DNA of 10,154 nt from a virus (taxonomy: Duplodnaviria > Heunggongvirae > Uroviricota > Caudoviricetes), in the IMG/VR virus record IMGVR_UViG_2671181118_000005, one strand, 5' to 3'. Under the pieces are notes generated by a model. That model saw only the letters and a program-made list of their open reading frames with translations. It had not been told where the DNA came from and did no database searches. A program made the position numbers and the translations under genes. This document shows positions 4,878 through 10,154 of the stretch, one piece after another. The stretch's first letter is position 1. The number at the start of each line of letters is the position of its first letter.

Positions 4878-6404
4878 TCAAAAATAAACCTCACCATCAA
4901 CCATATATTTGAGAGTACTTATCGCCTGCTGGGCGGATATTGTTTTCATTAAAGGATAGTGTTTAAAAACAATGCCATTCATAAAATAGATATCACAGGT
5001 TTTATTATCTGTATTGATTATGATTTTTTCGAATGTTTTATAGGCAAGTGTACGACATAGCTCTCGCCCATTTTTACTGGTTAAGTCAATAGCATGAAAA
5101 TCACCAAGTGAACTCACCGCTTTACTCTTCAAAGTTTTTAATGATACAGAAGCCCTTCGTAATTCCTTATCTAATACTCTGATTTTTTCTGCTATAGCGG
5201 TAACTTCAGGCGCAACAGATAATGCAGCAATTAAATTATTAATTTTCATCTGGAGCTCAATAATTTTCAACTCTAAAGTTTCATTAGCATCTTTCTTGTT
5301 TTCAACTGGTTGGATTTTACTACAATTAAAAAGCAACTCATTAATGATATTATAATCAACCAAATCTCTCTTTATTGATGGCCTGTCACATCGATGCAGT
5401 CTTCTCATCGGACAAACATAATAGCCATGCAAACTTCCAGATACCGCATGAACAATCATGGTATTACCACAAGCCTCGCACTTCATAACTGTTCGAAGTA
5501 GATTTATCAACATAGGATTTTTGCTACTATTGCTAATACCAAAAGGTGCCAACCGAATTTCCTGCACAGCGTAAAACAAATCATCTGATATGACTCTGGG
5601 ATAATAGCCAGCGATTTCACTTATTCCTTTACCTCTTGCACGATATGAAGGTACGCATATACCTATCAGAGCTTTATTCGCTAATAATTTTTCAATTACA
5701 GAAGGTCCCCATGCACTTTCTTTTCCTGAGAAATTCTTTACAGCATGATCATTTAAATACTTGGCTATTGCATTCAATGAGCGCCTTTCCATCCTGAGTT
5801 TAAAAATTAGCTCAATAGTTTTCACCCTGTCGGGGTCTGGAACAAAAGCCGTTCTTTTGTCATCCAATGAGAGCCATCTCGGACAAGACGCCGTCATAAT
5901 CGTGCCTGACTCCAGTGCATCCTGCCGTTTTTTCTTCCATGATAATTTAACCCGACTTGACTTTATCTCGCTTTCTTCATTTGCCCTTTGTGCTATAAGT
6001 ATGGCTTTTATTAATGAATATGGCTCATTCAATGAGTCAATATTATAGACTGTATTATCGCAAAGAGTTATAACATCAATACCGTGATTCAAAATCAATT
6101 TCAGACGCTCAATCGCCTCACCGACTTTTTCTCTTGAAAGTCTGTCCAGACTTTCAACTAACAATGTAGTCCCTGGCAATATATAACCATGTTCTATAGC
6201 ATCTAAAAATTCCGAAAAAGCTCCTGATTGTGCATGCTTTCCATTGAATGCGCTTAACCCCAAATCTTCATACGTTACGGTATCAAGGTAATAATCACTA
6301 TTTACCTTTAGCCATTCAGTAATAAGCCTTCTCTGGCGGTTTAATGAATCACCAGACATCTGACTTGGTGATGAAAATCGCATATATGCTATGGCTTTTT
6401 TCAT
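4878..6404 (-). CDS. ybcK: Large serine recombinase, 508 aa (resolvase-type catalytic N-terminal domain, recombinase domain, Cys-rich zinc-ribbon, coiled-coil region). Resembles the DLP12 putative recombinase YbcK.
   Basis: N-terminal AYMRFSSPSQ...R motif typical of serine recombinases; C-x2-C ... C ... C cluster (CEACGNT...YYVCPMRRLHRCDRP). Length and position next to emrE match K-12 ybcK as recalled. AT-rich codon usage. Confidence 0.85.
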   Translation of the reverse strand: MKKAIAYMRFSSPSQMSGDSLNRQRRLITEWLKVNSDYYLDTVTYEDLGLSAFNGKHAQSGAFSEFLDAIEHGYILPGTTLLVESLDRLSREKVGEAIERLKLILNHGIDVITLCDNTVYNIDSLNEPYSLIKAILIAQRANEESEIKSSRVKLSWKKKRQDALESGTIMTASCPRWLSLDDKRTAFVPDPDRVKTIELIFKLRMERRSLNAIAKYLNDHAVKNFSGKESAWGPSVIEKLLANKALIGICVPSYRARGKGISEIAGYYPRVISDDLFYAVQEIRLAPFGISNSSKNPMLINLLRTVMKCEACGNTMIVHAVSGSLHGYYVCPMRRLHRCDRPSIKRDLVDYNIINELLFNCSKIQPVENKKDANETLELKIIELQMKINNLIAALSVAPEVTAIAEKIRVLDKELRRASVSLKTLKSKAVSSLGDFHAIDLTSKNGRELCRTLAYKTFEKIIINTDNKTCDIYFMNGIVFKHYPLMKTISAQQAISTLKYMVDGEVYF

Positions 6405-6659
6405 GGTGACACCTGCTAAAGTATGCTTTTATAAACCTTAGTGGTGAGATATGATTTTTGTTTAATTTTTATTTAAAAAGACAATTAAGGTCACATTATC
6501 TTGAATATACAACAATAATCGTATTGCAATTTTCTTACACCATAATCTTGAAAGCACAAAAGAATGAATAAAAACTAAAGACATTAACAAAAAGCATAAA
6601 ACGAGGCCCATATAAATATACGAGCCTCCATATTTTAGTCGTTTAAAAACAAATTATTT
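6405..6659 (-). promoter_or_regulatory. AT-rich intergenic region; probable promoter region for the recombinase gene.
   Basis: About 255 bp of very AT-rich non-coding DNA between the emrE stop and the recombinase start. Confidence 0.3.
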
Positions 6660-6992
6660 TTAATGTGGTGTGCTTCGTGACAATAAATTAATAACCAACA
6701 CACCGGCACAAATCAACATCATGCCTATAATGGCTGGCAGGTCCAACCGTTGGCCGAAAAATCCCCATGATAGTAAGCTAATCAGGACAATACCGACTCC
6801 TGACCAGATAGCATAAGCAATCCCTGTAGGAATATAAGCCAGCGTCTGAGCTAATAACCAGAATGATGCACAATAACAAATAATTGTACCAACAGATGGC
6901 CATAACCGTGTAAAACCTTCTGAAAACTTCATTAAGGTTGTACCAATGACCTCTGCAAGTATTGCACCACCAAGATAAATATAAGGGTTCAT
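6660..6992 (-). CDS. emrE: Small multidrug resistance (SMR) efflux transporter EmrE, 110 aa.
   Basis: From the internal Met (MNPYIYLGGAILAEVIGTTLMKFSEGFTRLWPSVG...LSRSTPH) the translation is near-identical to E. coli EmrE as recalled. AGGAAAG ribosome-binding site upstream of ATG at 6990-6992. The upstream 18 codons in the track ORF are probably not translated. Confidence 0.93.
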   Translation of the reverse strand: MNPYIYLGGAILAEVIGTTLMKFSEGFTRLWPSVGTIICYCASFWLLAQTLAYIPTGIAYAIWSGVGIVLISLLSWGFFGQRLDLPAIIGMMLICAGVLVINLLSRSTPH

Positions 6993-7059
6993 AGCATATT
7001 CTTTCCTGTTCAAACTGGAGAGAATTGTACTACAGTTTGAACTCAACTCACCTGTTTCA

Positions 7060-7362
7060 TCATTGTGTACCCATTGATGTTCTTTTATATACCCTCAATA
7101 CCCGTTTCATCGCGGCACTCTGGCGACACTCCTTAAAAATCAAATTCGTGCTCACCTTTCCTTCCCATTCTTCTCTGGTAGCGAACCGATAATACACCGT
7201 TCGCCAGACCTTACCATCAACGACTAGGATTCCTGCCCGCGCCATTTTAGCCGCAGCCTGATTTATGCTGGTTACCGTTGCGCCTGTTACCGCGGCAACG
7301 TCCTGCGCACAGAATTTCTTATGAGTCCCCAGGTAATGAATAATTGACTCTTTGCCCGTCAT
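7060..7362 (-). CDS. ren: Ren protein (lambdoid Ren exclusion-related protein), 100 aa.
   Basis: MTGKE.IIHYLGTH...TGATVTSINQAAAKMARAG...VWRTVYYRFATREE matches lambda Ren as recalled. 4-bp ATGA overlap with the P stop, as in lambda. Confidence 0.85.
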   Translation of the reverse strand: MTGKESIIHYLGTHKKFCAQDVAAVTGATVTSINQAAAKMARAGILVVDGKVWRTVYYRFATREEWEGKVSTNLIFKECRQSAAMKRVLRVYKRTSMGTQ

Positions 7363-8060
7363 ACCCTTGCTCCTTTCAGCCCAAACTTAGCTTTGATTTC
7401 TGCGATCTTCGCCAGAGCCTGTGCACGATTTAGAGGTCTACCGCCCATGACAGGAAGTTGTTTTACTGGTTCAGGTATAGCCTCACCACGGTTAATTCGT
7501 GCGGTCATACAGGACAGTTCATCGGCAGCCTTGCGCCGTAATTCCGCGTCAGTCAACGCATTGGCCCGCATGTTCTGATACAGGTTGGTAACCAGCCAGT
7601 AGTGCGCGTTTGATTTCCACGGATAAGACTCTGCATCCGGATACAGCCCGCGCTTCCGGCAATACTCGTAAACCATATCAACCAGCTCGCTGGCGTTTGG
7701 CAGCCCGGCGGTAACGGATGCTTCTTCCCGGCACCAGGCGACAAACTGCCCGGGTGATGGCAGGAATGGTCGATTCTGCCGACGGGCTACGCGCATTCCA
7801 GCGTTAACCTGTTCCATTGTGGTGATCCCGTTTTCCCGAAAAGCCAGCACCCACTGGCGGCGGATTTCGTTCAGTTCATTCTGGTCACGGTTAGCCAGGC
7901 TCGCCGGGAAAGTTGCCAGTAACTGGCTGAACACACCGTTGATGATCTGCGCTACCTGCTGTACCTGTGGCTTTTCGTCGTACTGTTCCGGCATGTTGTT
8001 GGCGATCCGACGCATCTGCTCACGGTCAAAGTTAACCATCTGTGCGGCGATGTTTTTCAT
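7359..8060 (-). CDS. P: Replication protein P (DnaB helicase loader), 233 aa, apparently full length.
   Basis: MKNIAAQMVNFDREQMRRIANNMPEQYDEKPQVQQVAQIINGVF... matches lambda P almost residue for residue as recalled. Start overlaps the O stop (ATGA), as in lambda. Confidence 0.92.
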   Translation of the reverse strand: MKNIAAQMVNFDREQMRRIANNMPEQYDEKPQVQQVAQIINGVFSQLLATFPASLANRDQNELNEIRRQWVLAFRENGITTMEQVNAGMRVARRQNRPFLPSPGQFVAWCREEASVTAGLPNASELVDMVYEYCRKRGLYPDAESYPWKSNAHYWLVTNLYQNMRANALTDAELRRKAADELSCMTARINRGEAIPEPVKQLPVMGGRPLNRAQALAKIAEIKAKFGLKGARV

Positions 8061-8296
8061 AGATCCACCCCGTAAATCCAGTCAGTGTTTGTCAGGTCGA
8101 GTTTTGGTTTGCCGACTGTCACGCCAGCCTGTTGCTTGTTCCGGTTGATTTCGAGCTGGGTCCACTTGTCGCGGAGTTTGGCCGGACTCAGCACGTTACC
8201 GGACCAGAAGTTGTCCTGGCAGGCCCAGCGGAACAGTACACACATGTCGCGGTGGTTACGTCCATCACGTTCACGCATCAGACGGATATCGTTACC
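8057..8296 (-). pseudogene. O: Replication initiator O, C-terminal fragment of about 78 residues; N-terminal domain and the origin iterons are deleted.
   Basis: Minus-strand translation [76 protein letters not shown] matches the lambda O C-terminus. Upstream of about 8296 the same strand is antisense exo sequence. Confidence 0.85.
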
Positions 8297-8947
8297 GGGA
8301 TCGACGTGAGAGCTGTCGAACAGGGGGATGATGCGTGGCACAAATTACGGCTCGGCGTCATCACCGCTTCAGAAGTTCACAACGTGATAGCAAAGCCCCG
8401 CTCAGGAAAGAAGTGGCCTGACATGAAAATGTCCTACTTCCACACCCTGCTTGCCGAGGTTTGCACCGGTGTGGCTCCGGAAGTTAACGCTAAAGCACTG
8501 GCCTGGGGAAAACAGTACGAGAACGACGCCAGAACCCTGTTTGAGTTCACTTCCGGCGTAAATGTTATTGAATCCCCGATCATCTATCGCGACGAAAGTA
8601 TGCGCACCGCCTGCTCTCCCGATGGTTTATGCAGTGACGGCAATGGCCTTGAACTGAAATGCCCGTTTACCTCCCGGGATTTCATGAAGTTCCGGCTCGG
8701 TGGTTTCGAGGCCATAAAGTCGGCTTACATGGCCCAGGTGCAGTACAGCATGTGGGTGACGCGAAAAGATGCCTGGTACTTTGCCAACTATGACCCGCGT
8801 ATGAAGCGTGAAGGCCTGCATTATGTCGTGGTTGAGCGGGATGAAAAGTACATGGCGAATTTTGACGAGATGGTGCCGGAGTTCATCGAAAAAATGGACG
8901 AGGCACTGGCTGAAATTGGTTTTGTATTTGGGGAGCAATGGCGATGA
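8293..8947 (+). pseudogene. exo: Lambda-type exonuclease (Red-alpha / Exo), missing roughly its first 10 codons; fused upstream to antisense O/P DNA, with a fortuitous in-frame ATG at 8132.
   Basis: Translation from [31 protein letters not shown]... to ...[14 protein letters not shown] matches lambda Exo as recalled. bet and gam are not upstream where expected. Confidence 0.9.
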
Positions 8948-9009
8948 CGCATCCTCACGATAATATCCGGGTAGGCGCGATCACTTTCGTCTACTCCATT
9001 ACAAAGCGA

Positions 9010-9038
9010 GGCTGGGTATTTCCCGGCCTTTCTGTTAT
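9010..9038 (+). terminator. Candidate intrinsic terminator downstream of exo (lambda tL3-like position).
   Basis: GGCTGGG-TATTT-CCCGGCC hairpin (7-bp stem with one G-U pair) followed by TTTCTGTTAT. Confidence 0.3.
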
Positions 9039-9098
9039 CAGAAATCCACTGAAAGCACAGCGGCTGGCTGAGAAGATAAATAACAAACAGGAGGATAT

Positions 9099-9718
9099 AT
9101 GAGTCAGGTTGGTAATCATTCATTCGAATTTCCGGCATCGCAAGGTGTACAGGGTGGTACTGTTACACTCTTCCTTACCATACCAGGAAGATCGCTGGCT
9201 CGTTTCCTCGCTTCAGATAATTACGGCCATACACTGGAACGCTCTCAGCGAGAAATTAATCCAAATCGAGTACGAAAATTTTTAAATTATCTCACTAACG
9301 CAGACTCAAGAAATGAGCCTTTTATCATTCCCCCTCTCGTAGGTAACTGTGATTCGAATATAGAATTTGTACCGTTTGGCAACACAAATGTTGGTATAGC
9401 CAGAATTCCCCTCGACGCCGAAATAAAACTTTTTGATGGTCAACATCGTGCAGCTGGCATTGAGATATTTTGCCGAAGTTCCCCATCAACGCTCATGGTT
9501 CCCATGATGCTTACAATGAATCTGCCGCTAAAAACCCGGCAGCAGTTCTTTTCGGACATAAATAACAACGTTTCTAAGCCATCAGCGACCATCAATATGG
9601 CGTATAACGGCCGGGATGATATTGCTCAGGGAATGATATCCTTCCTGACCCAACATACTGTATTTGCCGATATAACCGATTTTGAACACAACGTAGTGCC
9701 ATTAAAAAGTAATATGTG
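9099..9718 (+). pseudogene. DGQHR-motif protein (DndB-like, ParB/Srx-fold family), 3'-truncated after about 206 codons by the IS insertion.
   Basis: ATG at 9099 with AGGAGG ribosome-binding site. Translation contains the family-defining FDGQHR motif (…AEIKLFDGQHRAAGIEIF…). The last 16 codons of the track ORF ([16 protein letters not shown]) are encoded by the IS left end, not by the gene. Confidence 0.7.
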
Positions 9719-9772
9719 TGAACCGCCCCGGGAATCCTGGAGACTAAACTTCCTGAGAAAGAGGTAAACAGG

Positions 9773-10099
9773 ATGACTAAAAATACTCGTTTTTCCCCCG
9801 AAGTCCGTCAACGGGCAGTCCGTATGGTTCTGGAAAGTCAGGATGAATATGACTCACAGTGGGCGGCAATTTGTTCCATTGCCCCAAAGATTGGCTGTAC
9901 GCCGGAGACTCTGCGTGTCTGGGTTCGCCAGCATGAGCGGGATACCGGGGGCGGTGATGGTGGGCTCACCAGCGCTGAACGTCAGCGTCTGAAAGAGCTG
10001 GAACGTGAAAATCGTGAACTGCGCCGCAGTAACGATATCCTTCGCCAGGCTTCCGCTTATTTTGCGAAGGCGGAGTTCGACCGCCTCTGGAAAAAATGA
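9773..10099 (+). CDS. IS629-group transposase OrfA (helix-turn-helix plus leucine-zipper subunit), 108 aa.
   Basis: [60 protein letters not shown]... matches IS629 OrfA as recalled. Confidence 0.9.
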
Positions 10100-10154
10100 T
10101 GCCACTGCTGGATAAGCTGCGTGAGCAGTACGGGGTCGGACCGGTATGCAGCGA
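10096..10154 (+). CDS. IS629-group transposase OrfB (catalytic subunit), N-terminal 19 codons only; made as an OrfAB fusion by -1 frameshifting at the A-rich slippery run.
   Basis: The -1 frame reads [19 protein letters not shown], matching the recalled OrfB N-terminus; slippery sequence GGAAAAAATGATG at 10089-10101 overlaps the orfA stop. Confidence 0.7.

What the first reader, a model, noticed from the sequence alone, without database searches (positions are those of the whole stretch)
9099..9718. DGQHR (DndB-like) gene in the accessory slot downstream of exo, cut by an IS629-type element
The sequence after the exo stop (8948-9098) is still lambda-like, but the gene at the lambda orf60a position is replaced by an ORF carrying the FDGQHR motif that defines the DndB / DGQHR ParB-fold family. 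That family is linked to DNA phosphorothioation and 7-deazaguanine DNA-modification systems, yet no partner gene is visible here. A stand-alone DGQHR gene in this leftward-operon slot could be an uncharacterised phage defence, anti-defence or DNA-modification sensing factor. The IS cuts it at codon about 206, so this copy is probably inactive and its 3' part and neighbours lie beyond the IS.
Basis: partly seen in the sequence, partly recalled or inferred. Interest (0 to 1): 0.65.

Follow-up and report, generated by a model that had tools for sequence, protein, structure and literature searches.

The report
IS-cut stand-alone DndB-like phage gene
The window holds the first 206 codons of a phage-borne DndB-like (DGQHR, ParB-fold) gene cut by an insertion sequence; this copy is dead, but intact copies form an uncharacterised family of early genes in temperate phages and plasmids, often just upstream of DNA methyltransferase genes.

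Summary
Window 9099-9718 encodes residues 1-206 of a 354-aa DGQHR-domain protein (Pfam DndB E=3.8e-36; TIGR03187 152 bits, cut-off 58.85). An IS3-family element of the IS629/IS1203 type begins at exactly 9719.

The gene follows exo and an orf60a homologue (DUF1317, 8938-9102). So orf60a is retained, not replaced. The setting is a defective lambdoid prophage that has lost pL, so this copy is doubly dead.

The intact allele is in 284 of 5426 complete E. coli genomes. Relatives of 30-73% identity occur in Salmonella, Klebsiella and Vibrio temperate phages, and in plasmid- or ICE-like regions next to KlcA and PsiA.

It is not DndB (107 bits against a cut-off of 328) and not DpdB. No dnd or dpd genes were found in 102 distinct contexts.

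DNA methyltransferases of six families sit at +1 to +3 in 37 of 98 contexts and almost nowhere else. However, 78 of 80 close copies of one such methyltransferase lack the DGQHR gene, and the E. coli allele never has one. The link is therefore optional.

Most likely (about 0.4) it is an NTP-gated DNA-binding early protein that supports DNA modification or anti-restriction. It is a new variant of a known kind, of moderate interest.

The parts
8057..8290 (-). 3' remnant of lambda replication gene O, ending at a deletion junction (about 8283-8295) that fuses it head-to-head to exo'
   Evidence: The translation matches the lambda O C-terminus. It is annotated 'Replication protein O, missing N-terminus' in the identical E. 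coli remnant.
8288..8947 (+). exo' : lambda exonuclease (YqaJ family) lacking about 9 N-terminal codons; bet, gam, N and pL upstream are deleted
   Evidence: ORF translation. Annotated 'lambda exonuclease family protein'. PF09588 on the called gene. No + strand sigma-70-like promoter in 7900-9100.
8938..9102 (+). orf60a homologue (DUF1317), overlapping the exo stop and the DGQHR start
   Evidence: Pfam PF07026 E=4.4e-31; PHROG 1998. The ATGA start/stop overlap at 9099-9102 is read.
9099..9718 (+). N-terminal 206 codons of the 354-aa DGQHR/DndB-family protein. It holds the whole ParB/Srx-like domain: QR pair 9240-9251, DGQHR 9435-9449, FxxxN 9549-9563
9719..9767 (+). Read-through of the broken frame into the IS: codon 207 changes W to C, 15 IS-encoded codons follow, and the stop codon is at 9765-9767
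9719..10154 (+). Left part of an IS3-family insertion sequence (IS629/IS1203 group): inverted repeat TGAACCGCCCCGGG, orfA 9773-10099, ALIL frameshift pseudoknot 10054-10154. The contig ends inside it
   Evidence: The window is a whole 10154-bp draft contig that stops in the IS.

Best explanation
Shown: the feature is the 5' 58% of a gene for a stand-alone DGQHR-domain protein. The intact protein has an N-terminal ParB/sulfiredoxin-fold nucleotide-binding domain and a C-terminal helical domain of about 150 residues. The gene lies in the exo-xis accessory region of a lambdoid prophage. It is chained to exo and orf60a by overlapping start and stop codons, so it belongs to the early leftward (pL) operon.

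Shown: this copy was split at codon 207 by an IS3-family element. It sits in a prophage remnant whose O-to-exo deletion removed pL. It is therefore a non-functional relic.

Inferred for the intact family (about 0.4): an NTP-gated DNA-binding protein made immediately after the element's DNA enters or is induced. It would act on DNA as an optional helper of DNA modification and anti-restriction. It might load, target or regulate orphan methyltransferases, or otherwise shield the incoming DNA. This would parallel the way its relatives DndB and DpdB serve phosphorothioation and 7-deazaguanine insertion. It is not part of a Dnd or Dpd system.

For: NTP binding is plausible. Box I and Box II (GQHRxxA) align with a DndB-like protein shown to bind ATP and GTP (PMC12704722). 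DpdB is an ATPase required by DpdA (PMC10164549).

Early-operon setting: exo-orf60a-DGQHR-TraR/DksA-DUF4222-xis-int in E. coli. The same position, between recombination genes and int, is used in Salmonella SPN1S, Klebsiella and Vibrio temperate phages. In many loci the stop overlaps the next gene's start by 4 bp.

A clade at 39-43% identity lies next to RadC, PsiA, KlcA/ArdB antirestriction, DUF4942, DUF932 and ParM, an arrangement like a plasmid leading region.

Methyltransferases of six families (MT-A70, Dam PF05869, N6_N4, two C5 types, D12) occupy +1 (15 contexts), +2 (22) and +3 (5). Only 1 is found across -8..-1 and only 3 across +4..+8, in 102 distinct contexts. In the 55-98% identity clade, 32 of 54 contexts have one at +1..+3.

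Purifying selection: 100 invariant columns among 23 sequences of 52-73% identity to the E. coli allele. Within the E. coli allele there are 17 synonymous and 9 nonsynonymous variable sites.

Death of this copy.
Against: No experiment on any member of this clade was found in the searchable literature.

The methyltransferase link is optional and may be only positional. Of 80 viral loci with an MT-A70 at least 89% identical to that of SPN1S, just 2 carry the DGQHR gene. The slot between DUF1317 and the methyltransferase is otherwise empty or holds unrelated cassettes.

The allele in this window has no methyltransferase within three genes in any of 18 contexts.

No DGQHR-methyltransferase fusion was found among the long variants.

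Confidence: 0.4

Rival explanations
1. Prophage- or plasmid-encoded defence. The DGQHR domain would sense foreign or modified DNA and restrict it, or exclude superinfecting phages, as the related DUF262 NTPase domains do in GmrSD, SspE and BrxU.
Against: There is no nuclease domain. Pfam finds only DndB, and the C-terminal half is helical with no HNH or DUF1524 hit. PADLOC matches only its DndB model and no effector. The gene is chained by start/stop overlaps inside the early operon that the repressor keeps silent in a lysogen, and no promoter of its own was detected.
Confidence: 0.15
2. A DndB-like transcription regulator. An NTP-modulated DNA-binding repressor would tune the downstream accessory genes or the lysis-lysogeny decision, as other exo-xis genes do.
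For: DndB is described as an ATP-modulated repressor of its own operon (PMC4507180; Xia 2019, as cited). Exo-xis genes including orf60a influence lysogenisation and induction (PMC6213356, PMC3824215). An HTH protein (PHROG 323) often lies between the DGQHR gene and the methyltransferase.
Against: Translational coupling inside a long N-antiterminated operon leaves little room for a dedicated promoter to regulate. The downstream neighbours are highly variable. No DNA-binding HTH is detectable in the protein itself.
Confidence: 0.15
3. A weapon in conflicts between mobile elements. A ParB/Srx-fold ATPase-DNase such as Osa of plasmid pSa would attack or block the DNA of competing plasmids or phages.
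For: ParB/Srx proteins with ATPase and DNase activity mediate fertility inhibition (Maindola 2014, as cited in PMC12839542). A sister clade lies in plasmid- or ICE-like regions.
Against: There is no sequence relationship to Osa beyond the shared fold, and no evidence of nuclease activity. The same objection about early-operon expression applies as for the defence rival.
Confidence: 0.1

Closest known systems
DndB (TIGR03233; negative regulator of the dndBCDE phosphorothioation operon)
   Same: Same Pfam family (PF14072) and the same three motifs (QR, DGQHR, FxxxN). The proteins align over about 280 residues with hhalign probability 99.5%. Both are about 355 aa, with a ParB-fold N-domain followed by a helical C-domain.
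   Different: Only 24% identical. It scores 107 bits against the equivalog cut-off of 328, whereas a genuine DndB scores 467. It is never next to dndC, dndD or dndE. It sits in phage early operons or plasmid regions.
DpdB (NF041060; ParB-like ATPase that DpdA needs to insert preQ0 into DNA)
   Same: A DGQHR-type ParB-fold protein that serves as an accessory to a DNA-modifying enzyme (PMC10164549). The frequent methyltransferase just downstream suggests an analogous helper role.
   Different: No hit to the DpdB model. No TGT-like DpdA was found among the neighbours. The candidate partners, where present, are methyltransferases, and they are optional.
ParB-CTPase-fold fusions to DNA methyltransferases in prophages (PMC12704722)
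   Same: A ParB-fold nucleotide-binding module is combined with a DNA methyltransferase in prophage early regions. Here the combination is two adjacent, often overlapping genes.
   Different: Those fusions use the ParB_N domain (PF02195) within one polypeptide. Here the domain is DndB-type, the genes are separate, no fusion was found, and the pairing is facultative.
GmrSD / SspE / BrxU (DUF262 'DGQQR' NTPase fused to an HNH or DUF1524 nuclease)
   Different: It has no nuclease domain. It matches the DGQHR model, not DUF262. It is phage-early rather than part of a host defence island.
Lambda exo-xis region genes (orf60a, orf63, orf61, orf73, ea22, ea8.5)
   Same: The same genomic slot and operon, and orf60a is conserved immediately upstream.
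   Different: Lambda and the studied Stx phages have no DGQHR gene there. The protein is unrelated to the known exo-xis products.

Membership tests
DGQHR domain family (TIGR03187 / Pfam PF14072) | Profile score above the curated cut-off | tested here: met
   Window fragment: TIGR03187 152.1 bits (cut-off 58.85) and PF14072 125.3 bits (cut-off 29.1). Intact protein: 188.9 and 158.2 bits.
DGQHR domain family (TIGR03187 / Pfam PF14072) | QR pair, DGQHR pentapeptide and FxxxN motif (PMC4619093) | tested here: met
   R48-S-Q-R51, D113-G-Q-H-R117 and F151-S-D-I-N155. All are invariant in 23 family members and all lie within the retained 206 codons.
DGQHR domain family (TIGR03187 / Pfam PF14072) | ParB/sulfiredoxin fold of the N-terminal domain | tested here: met
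   [not shown]
DGQHR domain family (TIGR03187 / Pfam PF14072) | NTP binding or hydrolysis | not testable with these tools
   Inferred only. Box I and Box II align with a DndB-like protein that binds ATP and GTP.
DndB proper (TIGR03233 equivalog) | Equivalog score of at least 328 bits | tested here: not met
   107 bits for the intact protein and 84.6 for the fragment. The Salmonella DndB control scores 466.7.
DndB proper (TIGR03233 equivalog) | Encoded at the head of a dndBCDE operon | tested here: not met
   No DndC, DndD or DndE in 102 distinct contexts. The Pfam census of 150 neighbour clusters shows no PAPS reductase among the 25 families displayed, out of 78 found. The canonical operon is seen in control locus L206.
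DpdB (NF041060) | Equivalog score of at least 300 bits and an adjacent TGT-like dpdA | tested here: not met
   No hit at E<=0.01. No TGT family in the displayed neighbour census.
GmrSD / SspE type IV enzymes | DUF262 N-domain plus a C-terminal HNH or DUF1524 nuclease | tested here: not met
   [not shown]
Canonical ParB (partition) | ParB_N plus HTH plus dimerisation domain, with a ParA partner | tested here: not met
   No PF02195 or HTH_ParB hit in the protein. There is no ParA next to the E. coli allele.
IS3 family, IS629/IS1203 group (the disrupting element) | Terminal inverted repeat TGAACCGCCCCGGG, an orfA of about 108 aa, a -1 frameshift signal, and high identity to named copies | tested here: met
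   Sequence at 9719. orfA at 9773-10099. ALIL pseudoknot RF01497, 89 bits. 97.8% identical to copies annotated IS1203 and 100% identical to plasmid copies. The right end and the target duplication lie beyond the contig end and were not seen.
Lambda exo-xis accessory region | Lies between exo/orf60a and xis-int in the early leftward operon | tested here: met
   exo' and DUF1317 lie upstream in the window. In the uninterrupted, 99.9%-identical remnant the gene is followed by TraR/DksA, DUF4222, xis, int and icd.

The most novel reading that the evidence does not exclude
Stand-alone DGQHR proteins of temperate phages and plasmid leading regions form a new class of early anti-restriction factor. 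They would be NTP-driven ParB-fold DNA clamps that either make orphan methyltransferases of many families fast or processive on incoming DNA, or shield that DNA directly from host nucleases. This would extend the DndB/DpdB logic of a ParB-fold helper for a DNA modifier to ordinary methylation.
Probability: 0.2. Interest if true: 0.7.

Novelty: new variant of a known kind. Interest (0 to 1): 0.4.

Why it matters
DGQHR/ParB-fold proteins are known only as parts of the Dnd and Dpd DNA-modification systems and, in the DUF262 form, of type IV restriction enzymes. This work delimits a clade that has left those systems and rides in the first-expressed operons of temperate phages and plasmid-like elements. 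It occurs in about 5% of complete E. coli genomes, across many Enterobacterales, and in Vibrio and its relatives. If it helps methyltransferases or blocks restriction, it would be a common, overlooked determinant of phage and plasmid establishment. It would also be a simple model for what the ParB fold does in DNA-modification systems. The copy in this window is a dead relic with no importance of its own.

Tried and rejected
- **Solved relative by sequence:** none found.
- **Fold searches:** Foldseek against the PDB gave only weak hits to the ParB/Srx N-domain. The AFDB library was unavailable. The viral structure library returned only other DndB-like and GmrSD-N-like proteins with no functional annotation.
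- **Obligate methyltransferase partner:** rejected. Only 2 of 80 close MT-A70 loci carry the gene, and 0 of 18 contexts of the E. coli allele have a methyltransferase.
- **DUF1317 (orf60a) as a specific partner:** rejected. It stays in place when the DGQHR gene is absent, and lambda has orf60a with no DGQHR gene in its exo-xis region.
- **Hidden dnd, dpd or ssp partners:** none found in the neighbour census.
- **Domain fusions:** long variants (409-539 aa) carry only the DndB domain. Variants with N-terminal extensions (about 520 aa) showed no motif I could recognise by eye; no profile search was run on them.
- **Recovering the 3' half:** no complete E. coli genome has this junction. The window is a whole draft contig, CYCN01000046.1. 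All 4 contigs inspected, out of 14 that carry the same broken product, stop in or just after the IS.
- **Literature:** searches for DGQHR, DndB-like, PF14072, DndB with prophage, lambdoid or leading region found no study of this clade.
- **PADLOC:** recognises only its DndB model, so it gives no independent evidence for defence.

Full report
**What is in the window**

An ORF begins at 9099. Its ATG overlaps the TGA of the preceding gene (ATGA), and a GGAGG lies 5 nt upstream. The first 206 codons (9099-9716) score Pfam PF14072 (DndB) at E=3.8e-36. They score NCBIfam TIGR03187 (DGQHR domain) at 152.1 bits against a cut-off of 58.85.

The three motifs that define the domain (PMC4619093) are all present:
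- the QR pair, R48-S-Q-R51, at 9240-9251;
- DGQHR, at 9435-9449;
- FxxxN, F151-S-D-I-N155, at 9549-9563.

Compared with the uninterrupted E. coli gene, the window is identical up to 9718 and diverges from 9719, where TGAACCGCCCCGGG begins. Codon 207 changes from W to C. The frame then runs 15 codons into the insertion, with its stop codon at 9765-9767.

The inserted element has a 108-aa orfA (9773-10099) and the IS3-family frameshift signal (ALIL pseudoknot RF01497, 89 bits, 10054-10154). It is 97.8% identical to chromosomal copies annotated IS1203 and 100% identical to copies on E. coli plasmids. 'IS629-type' is an adequate label.

**Surroundings**

The gene immediately upstream (8938-9102) is a DUF1317 protein, which is the lambda orf60a homologue (E=4.4e-31). 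The DGQHR gene follows it, in what the literature calls the exo-xis region (PMC6213356, PMC8614690).

Further upstream, exo lacks about nine N-terminal codons. At about 8283-8295 it is fused head-to-head to the 3' end of replication gene O, which lies on the other strand. That deletion removed bet, gam, N, pL, cI, cro, cII and the start of O. No plus-strand sigma-70-like promoter is detectable between 7900 and 9100.

The window is a whole 10,154-bp draft contig (CYCN01000046.1 of GCA_001283945.1) that ends inside the IS. The identical broken product is called on 14 contigs. All four that were inspected stop in or just after the IS, so the 3' half could not be recovered. No complete RefSeq E. 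coli genome has this junction.

This copy is therefore inactivated twice, by the IS and by the loss of its operon's promoter.

**The intact gene and its family**

The intact allele (WP_000084449.1) is present at 99% identity or more in 284 of 5426 complete E. coli genomes. It also occurs in IMG/VR prophage contigs that still have gam-bet-exo upstream.

It is PHROG 7901, 'unknown function'. PADLOC matches only its DndB model.

The large protein database returns 247 relatives at E<=1e-5. All 120 listed are about 350-400 aa, carry PF14072 only, and come from Escherichia, Salmonella, Klebsiella, Enterobacter, Citrobacter, Serratia, Cronobacter, Hafnia, Erwinia and others.

A profile search of 1.84 billion representatives finds 79 clusters at E<=1e-30 and 817 at E<=1e-3.

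Sequenced phages that carry a homologue:
- Salmonella SPN1S, SPN9TCW and SPC32H/N (65% identity);
- Klebsiella temperate phages (62%);
- Vibrio phages (about 33%).

Twenty-three members of 52-73% identity to the E. coli allele share 100 invariant columns. Within the E. coli allele, 17 variable sites are synonymous and 9 nonsynonymous. Nonsynonymous sites outnumber synonymous ones about threefold, so this points to purifying selection. That estimate is rough.

**Structure**

An AlphaFold2 model built from the 23-sequence alignment has mean pLDDT 82.6. It shows an alpha/beta N-terminal domain (about residues 8-200) and a helical C-terminal domain (about 205-350).

The truncated product keeps the whole ParB-like domain but loses the helical domain.

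The motifs align with Box I and Box II (GQHRxxA) of a DndB-like protein that was shown to bind ATP and GTP (PMC12704722). NTP binding is therefore a reasonable inference, but it is not shown.

**Membership**

The protein is a member of the DGQHR domain family.

It is not DndB. The equivalog model gives 107 bits against a cut-off of 328, while a genuine Salmonella DndB scores 466.7 in the same run. Identity to that DndB is 24%, with hhalign probability 99.5%.

It gives no hit to the DpdB model. It has no DUF262, HNH or ParB_N profile.

**Genomic context across relatives**

I collected 41 loci from one genome per species and 80 viral contigs, plus annotated phage and E. coli loci. That made 123 loci and 102 distinct contexts.

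No neighbour is universal. The gene always lies in a long co-directional operon downstream of recombination genes (Exo/Bet, RecT/RecE-like, RdgC, Gam) and upstream of xis and int. Its stop often overlaps the next gene's start by 4 bp.

A Pfam census of 150 neighbour clusters shows typical early-region families: Ea22, RecT, YqaJ, ParB/KorB, ParA, a MazG-like pyrophosphohydrolase, NinX, RdgC, Gam, DNA methylases, PsiA and an ArdC-like metallopeptidase. No TGT or PAPS-reductase family appears among the 25 families displayed, out of 78 found.

A clade at 39-43% identity (427-460 aa) lies next to RadC, PsiA, KlcA/ArdB antirestriction, DUF4942, DUF932, DUF1281 and ParM. This arrangement resembles plasmid or ICE leading regions.

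**The methyltransferase association and its control**

DNA methyltransferases of six families (MT-A70, Dam PF05869, N6_N4, two C5 types, D12) sit directly downstream of the DGQHR gene:

| Position relative to the DGQHR gene | Contexts with a methyltransferase |
|---|---|
| +1 | 15 |
| +2 | 22 |
| +3 | 5 |
| all of -8 to -1 | 1 |
| all of +4 to +8 | 3 |

In the 55-98% identity clade, 32 of 54 contexts have one at +1 to +3. A PHROG-323 HTH protein often lies in between.

Vibrio phage Va_PF430-3_p42 repeats the pattern: DGQHR, then a C5 methylase, then one small ORF, then int. A Pseudoalteromonas phage places its DGQHR gene among PAPS-reductase and C5-methylase genes.

This fits the known theme of ParB-fold helpers of DNA modifiers:
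- DndB for phosphorothioation;
- DpdB as the ATPase that DpdA needs (PMC10164549);
- ParB-methyltransferase fusions in prophages (PMC12704722).

The control weakens a strict partnership. Of 80 viral loci with an MT-A70 at least 89% identical to that of SPN1S, only 2 have the DGQHR gene. The slot between DUF1317 and the methyltransferase is otherwise empty or filled by unrelated cassettes.

In addition, the E. coli allele has no methyltransferase nearby in any of 18 contexts. No DGQHR-methyltransferase fusion was found.

The association is thus real as a positional pattern, but it is facultative. It could partly reflect conserved gene order at the int-proximal end of these operons.

**Interpretation**

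Shown:
- the gene's identity;
- the exact truncation point;
- the loss of pL;
- a stand-alone distribution on mobile elements;
- membership of an early operon;
- the absence of Dnd or Dpd partners.

Inferred, at about 0.4: the intact protein is an NTP-gated DNA-binding factor made immediately on entry or induction. It would serve DNA modification or anti-restriction as an optional helper or shield.

Rivals:
- **A defence function like GmrSD or SspE (0.15).** This is disfavoured by the lack of a nuclease domain and by placement in an operon that is silent in lysogens.
- **A DndB-like regulator of phage genes or of the lysis-lysogeny decision (0.15).**
- **An Osa-like weapon against other mobile elements (0.1).**

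None can be excluded without experiments.

**Novelty and interest**

The gene is already annotated generically, and the domain is known. What appears to be undescribed in the searchable literature is the stand-alone clade in phage early operons and plasmid leading-type regions, together with its recurrent position just upstream of orphan methyltransferases.

I rate it a new variant of a known kind with moderate interest (0.4). The family is a good, cheap experimental target. The copy in this window is a dead relic.

Noticed in passing
[not shown]
   Followed up: partly
window 4878-8060 (minus strand): The ybcK recombinase, YlcJ, emrE, ren and P module known from prophage DLP12 of K-12 is here part of a remnant integrated at icd, the e14 site. 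In strain FORC064 (L001 3920-6993) this module is replaced by a McrBC-like pair (mcrC plus an AAA ATPase).
   Followed up: no
intact allele, codon 47 (window 9237-9239); loci L056, L068-L070, L072-L075: Among 33 E. coli loci, codon 47 (E, just before the RSQRE motif) shows three different changes: E47A in 4 loci, E47D in 3 and E47* in 1. P74S (2 loci) and G171S (1 locus) hit residues that are invariant in the family. Other independent disruptions are an IS1 insertion (H23) and a truncation (H125). This may be a mutational or selective hot spot, or occasional selection against the active protein.
   Followed up: partly
L001 10342-10356 (78 nt after the DGQHR stop in the intact allele): A terminator-like hairpin (GGAGC-TAC-AGGCTCC followed by a T run) lies in a 153-bp gap before the TraR/DksA-like gene. 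In other clades the next gene overlaps the DGQHR stop. This suggests the E. coli allele arrived as a cassette with its own 3' end.
   Followed up: no
L094 1828-2289, L099 9046-9579 and similar: An uncharacterised 154-179-aa HTH protein (PHROG 323) is wedged between the DGQHR gene and the methyltransferase in about 25 contexts. The 178-aa form gives weak Sigma70_r4 and GcrA-like hits; the 154-aa form has no Pfam hit. It could be the real regulator of the module.
   Followed up: partly
L139-L168 (viral contigs related to SPN1S): The slot between DUF1317 and the MT-A70 methyltransferase is a variable cargo site. It can be empty or hold a 218-241-aa protein, a 168-aa protein, a 63-aa protein or the DGQHR gene. 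NCBIfam found nothing for the 220-aa and 168-aa cassettes.
   Followed up: partly
L036 3846-6323 (Rheinheimera pacifica): Two DGQHR genes lie in tandem (451 and 341 aa).
   Followed up: no
[not shown]
   Followed up: no
P0191-P0249 (protein representatives): A sizeable group of proteins of about 510-545 aa has the DGQHR domain starting near residue 150, after an N-terminal extension in which I recognised no motif by eye (no profile search was run). Their genomic context is unknown.
   Followed up: no
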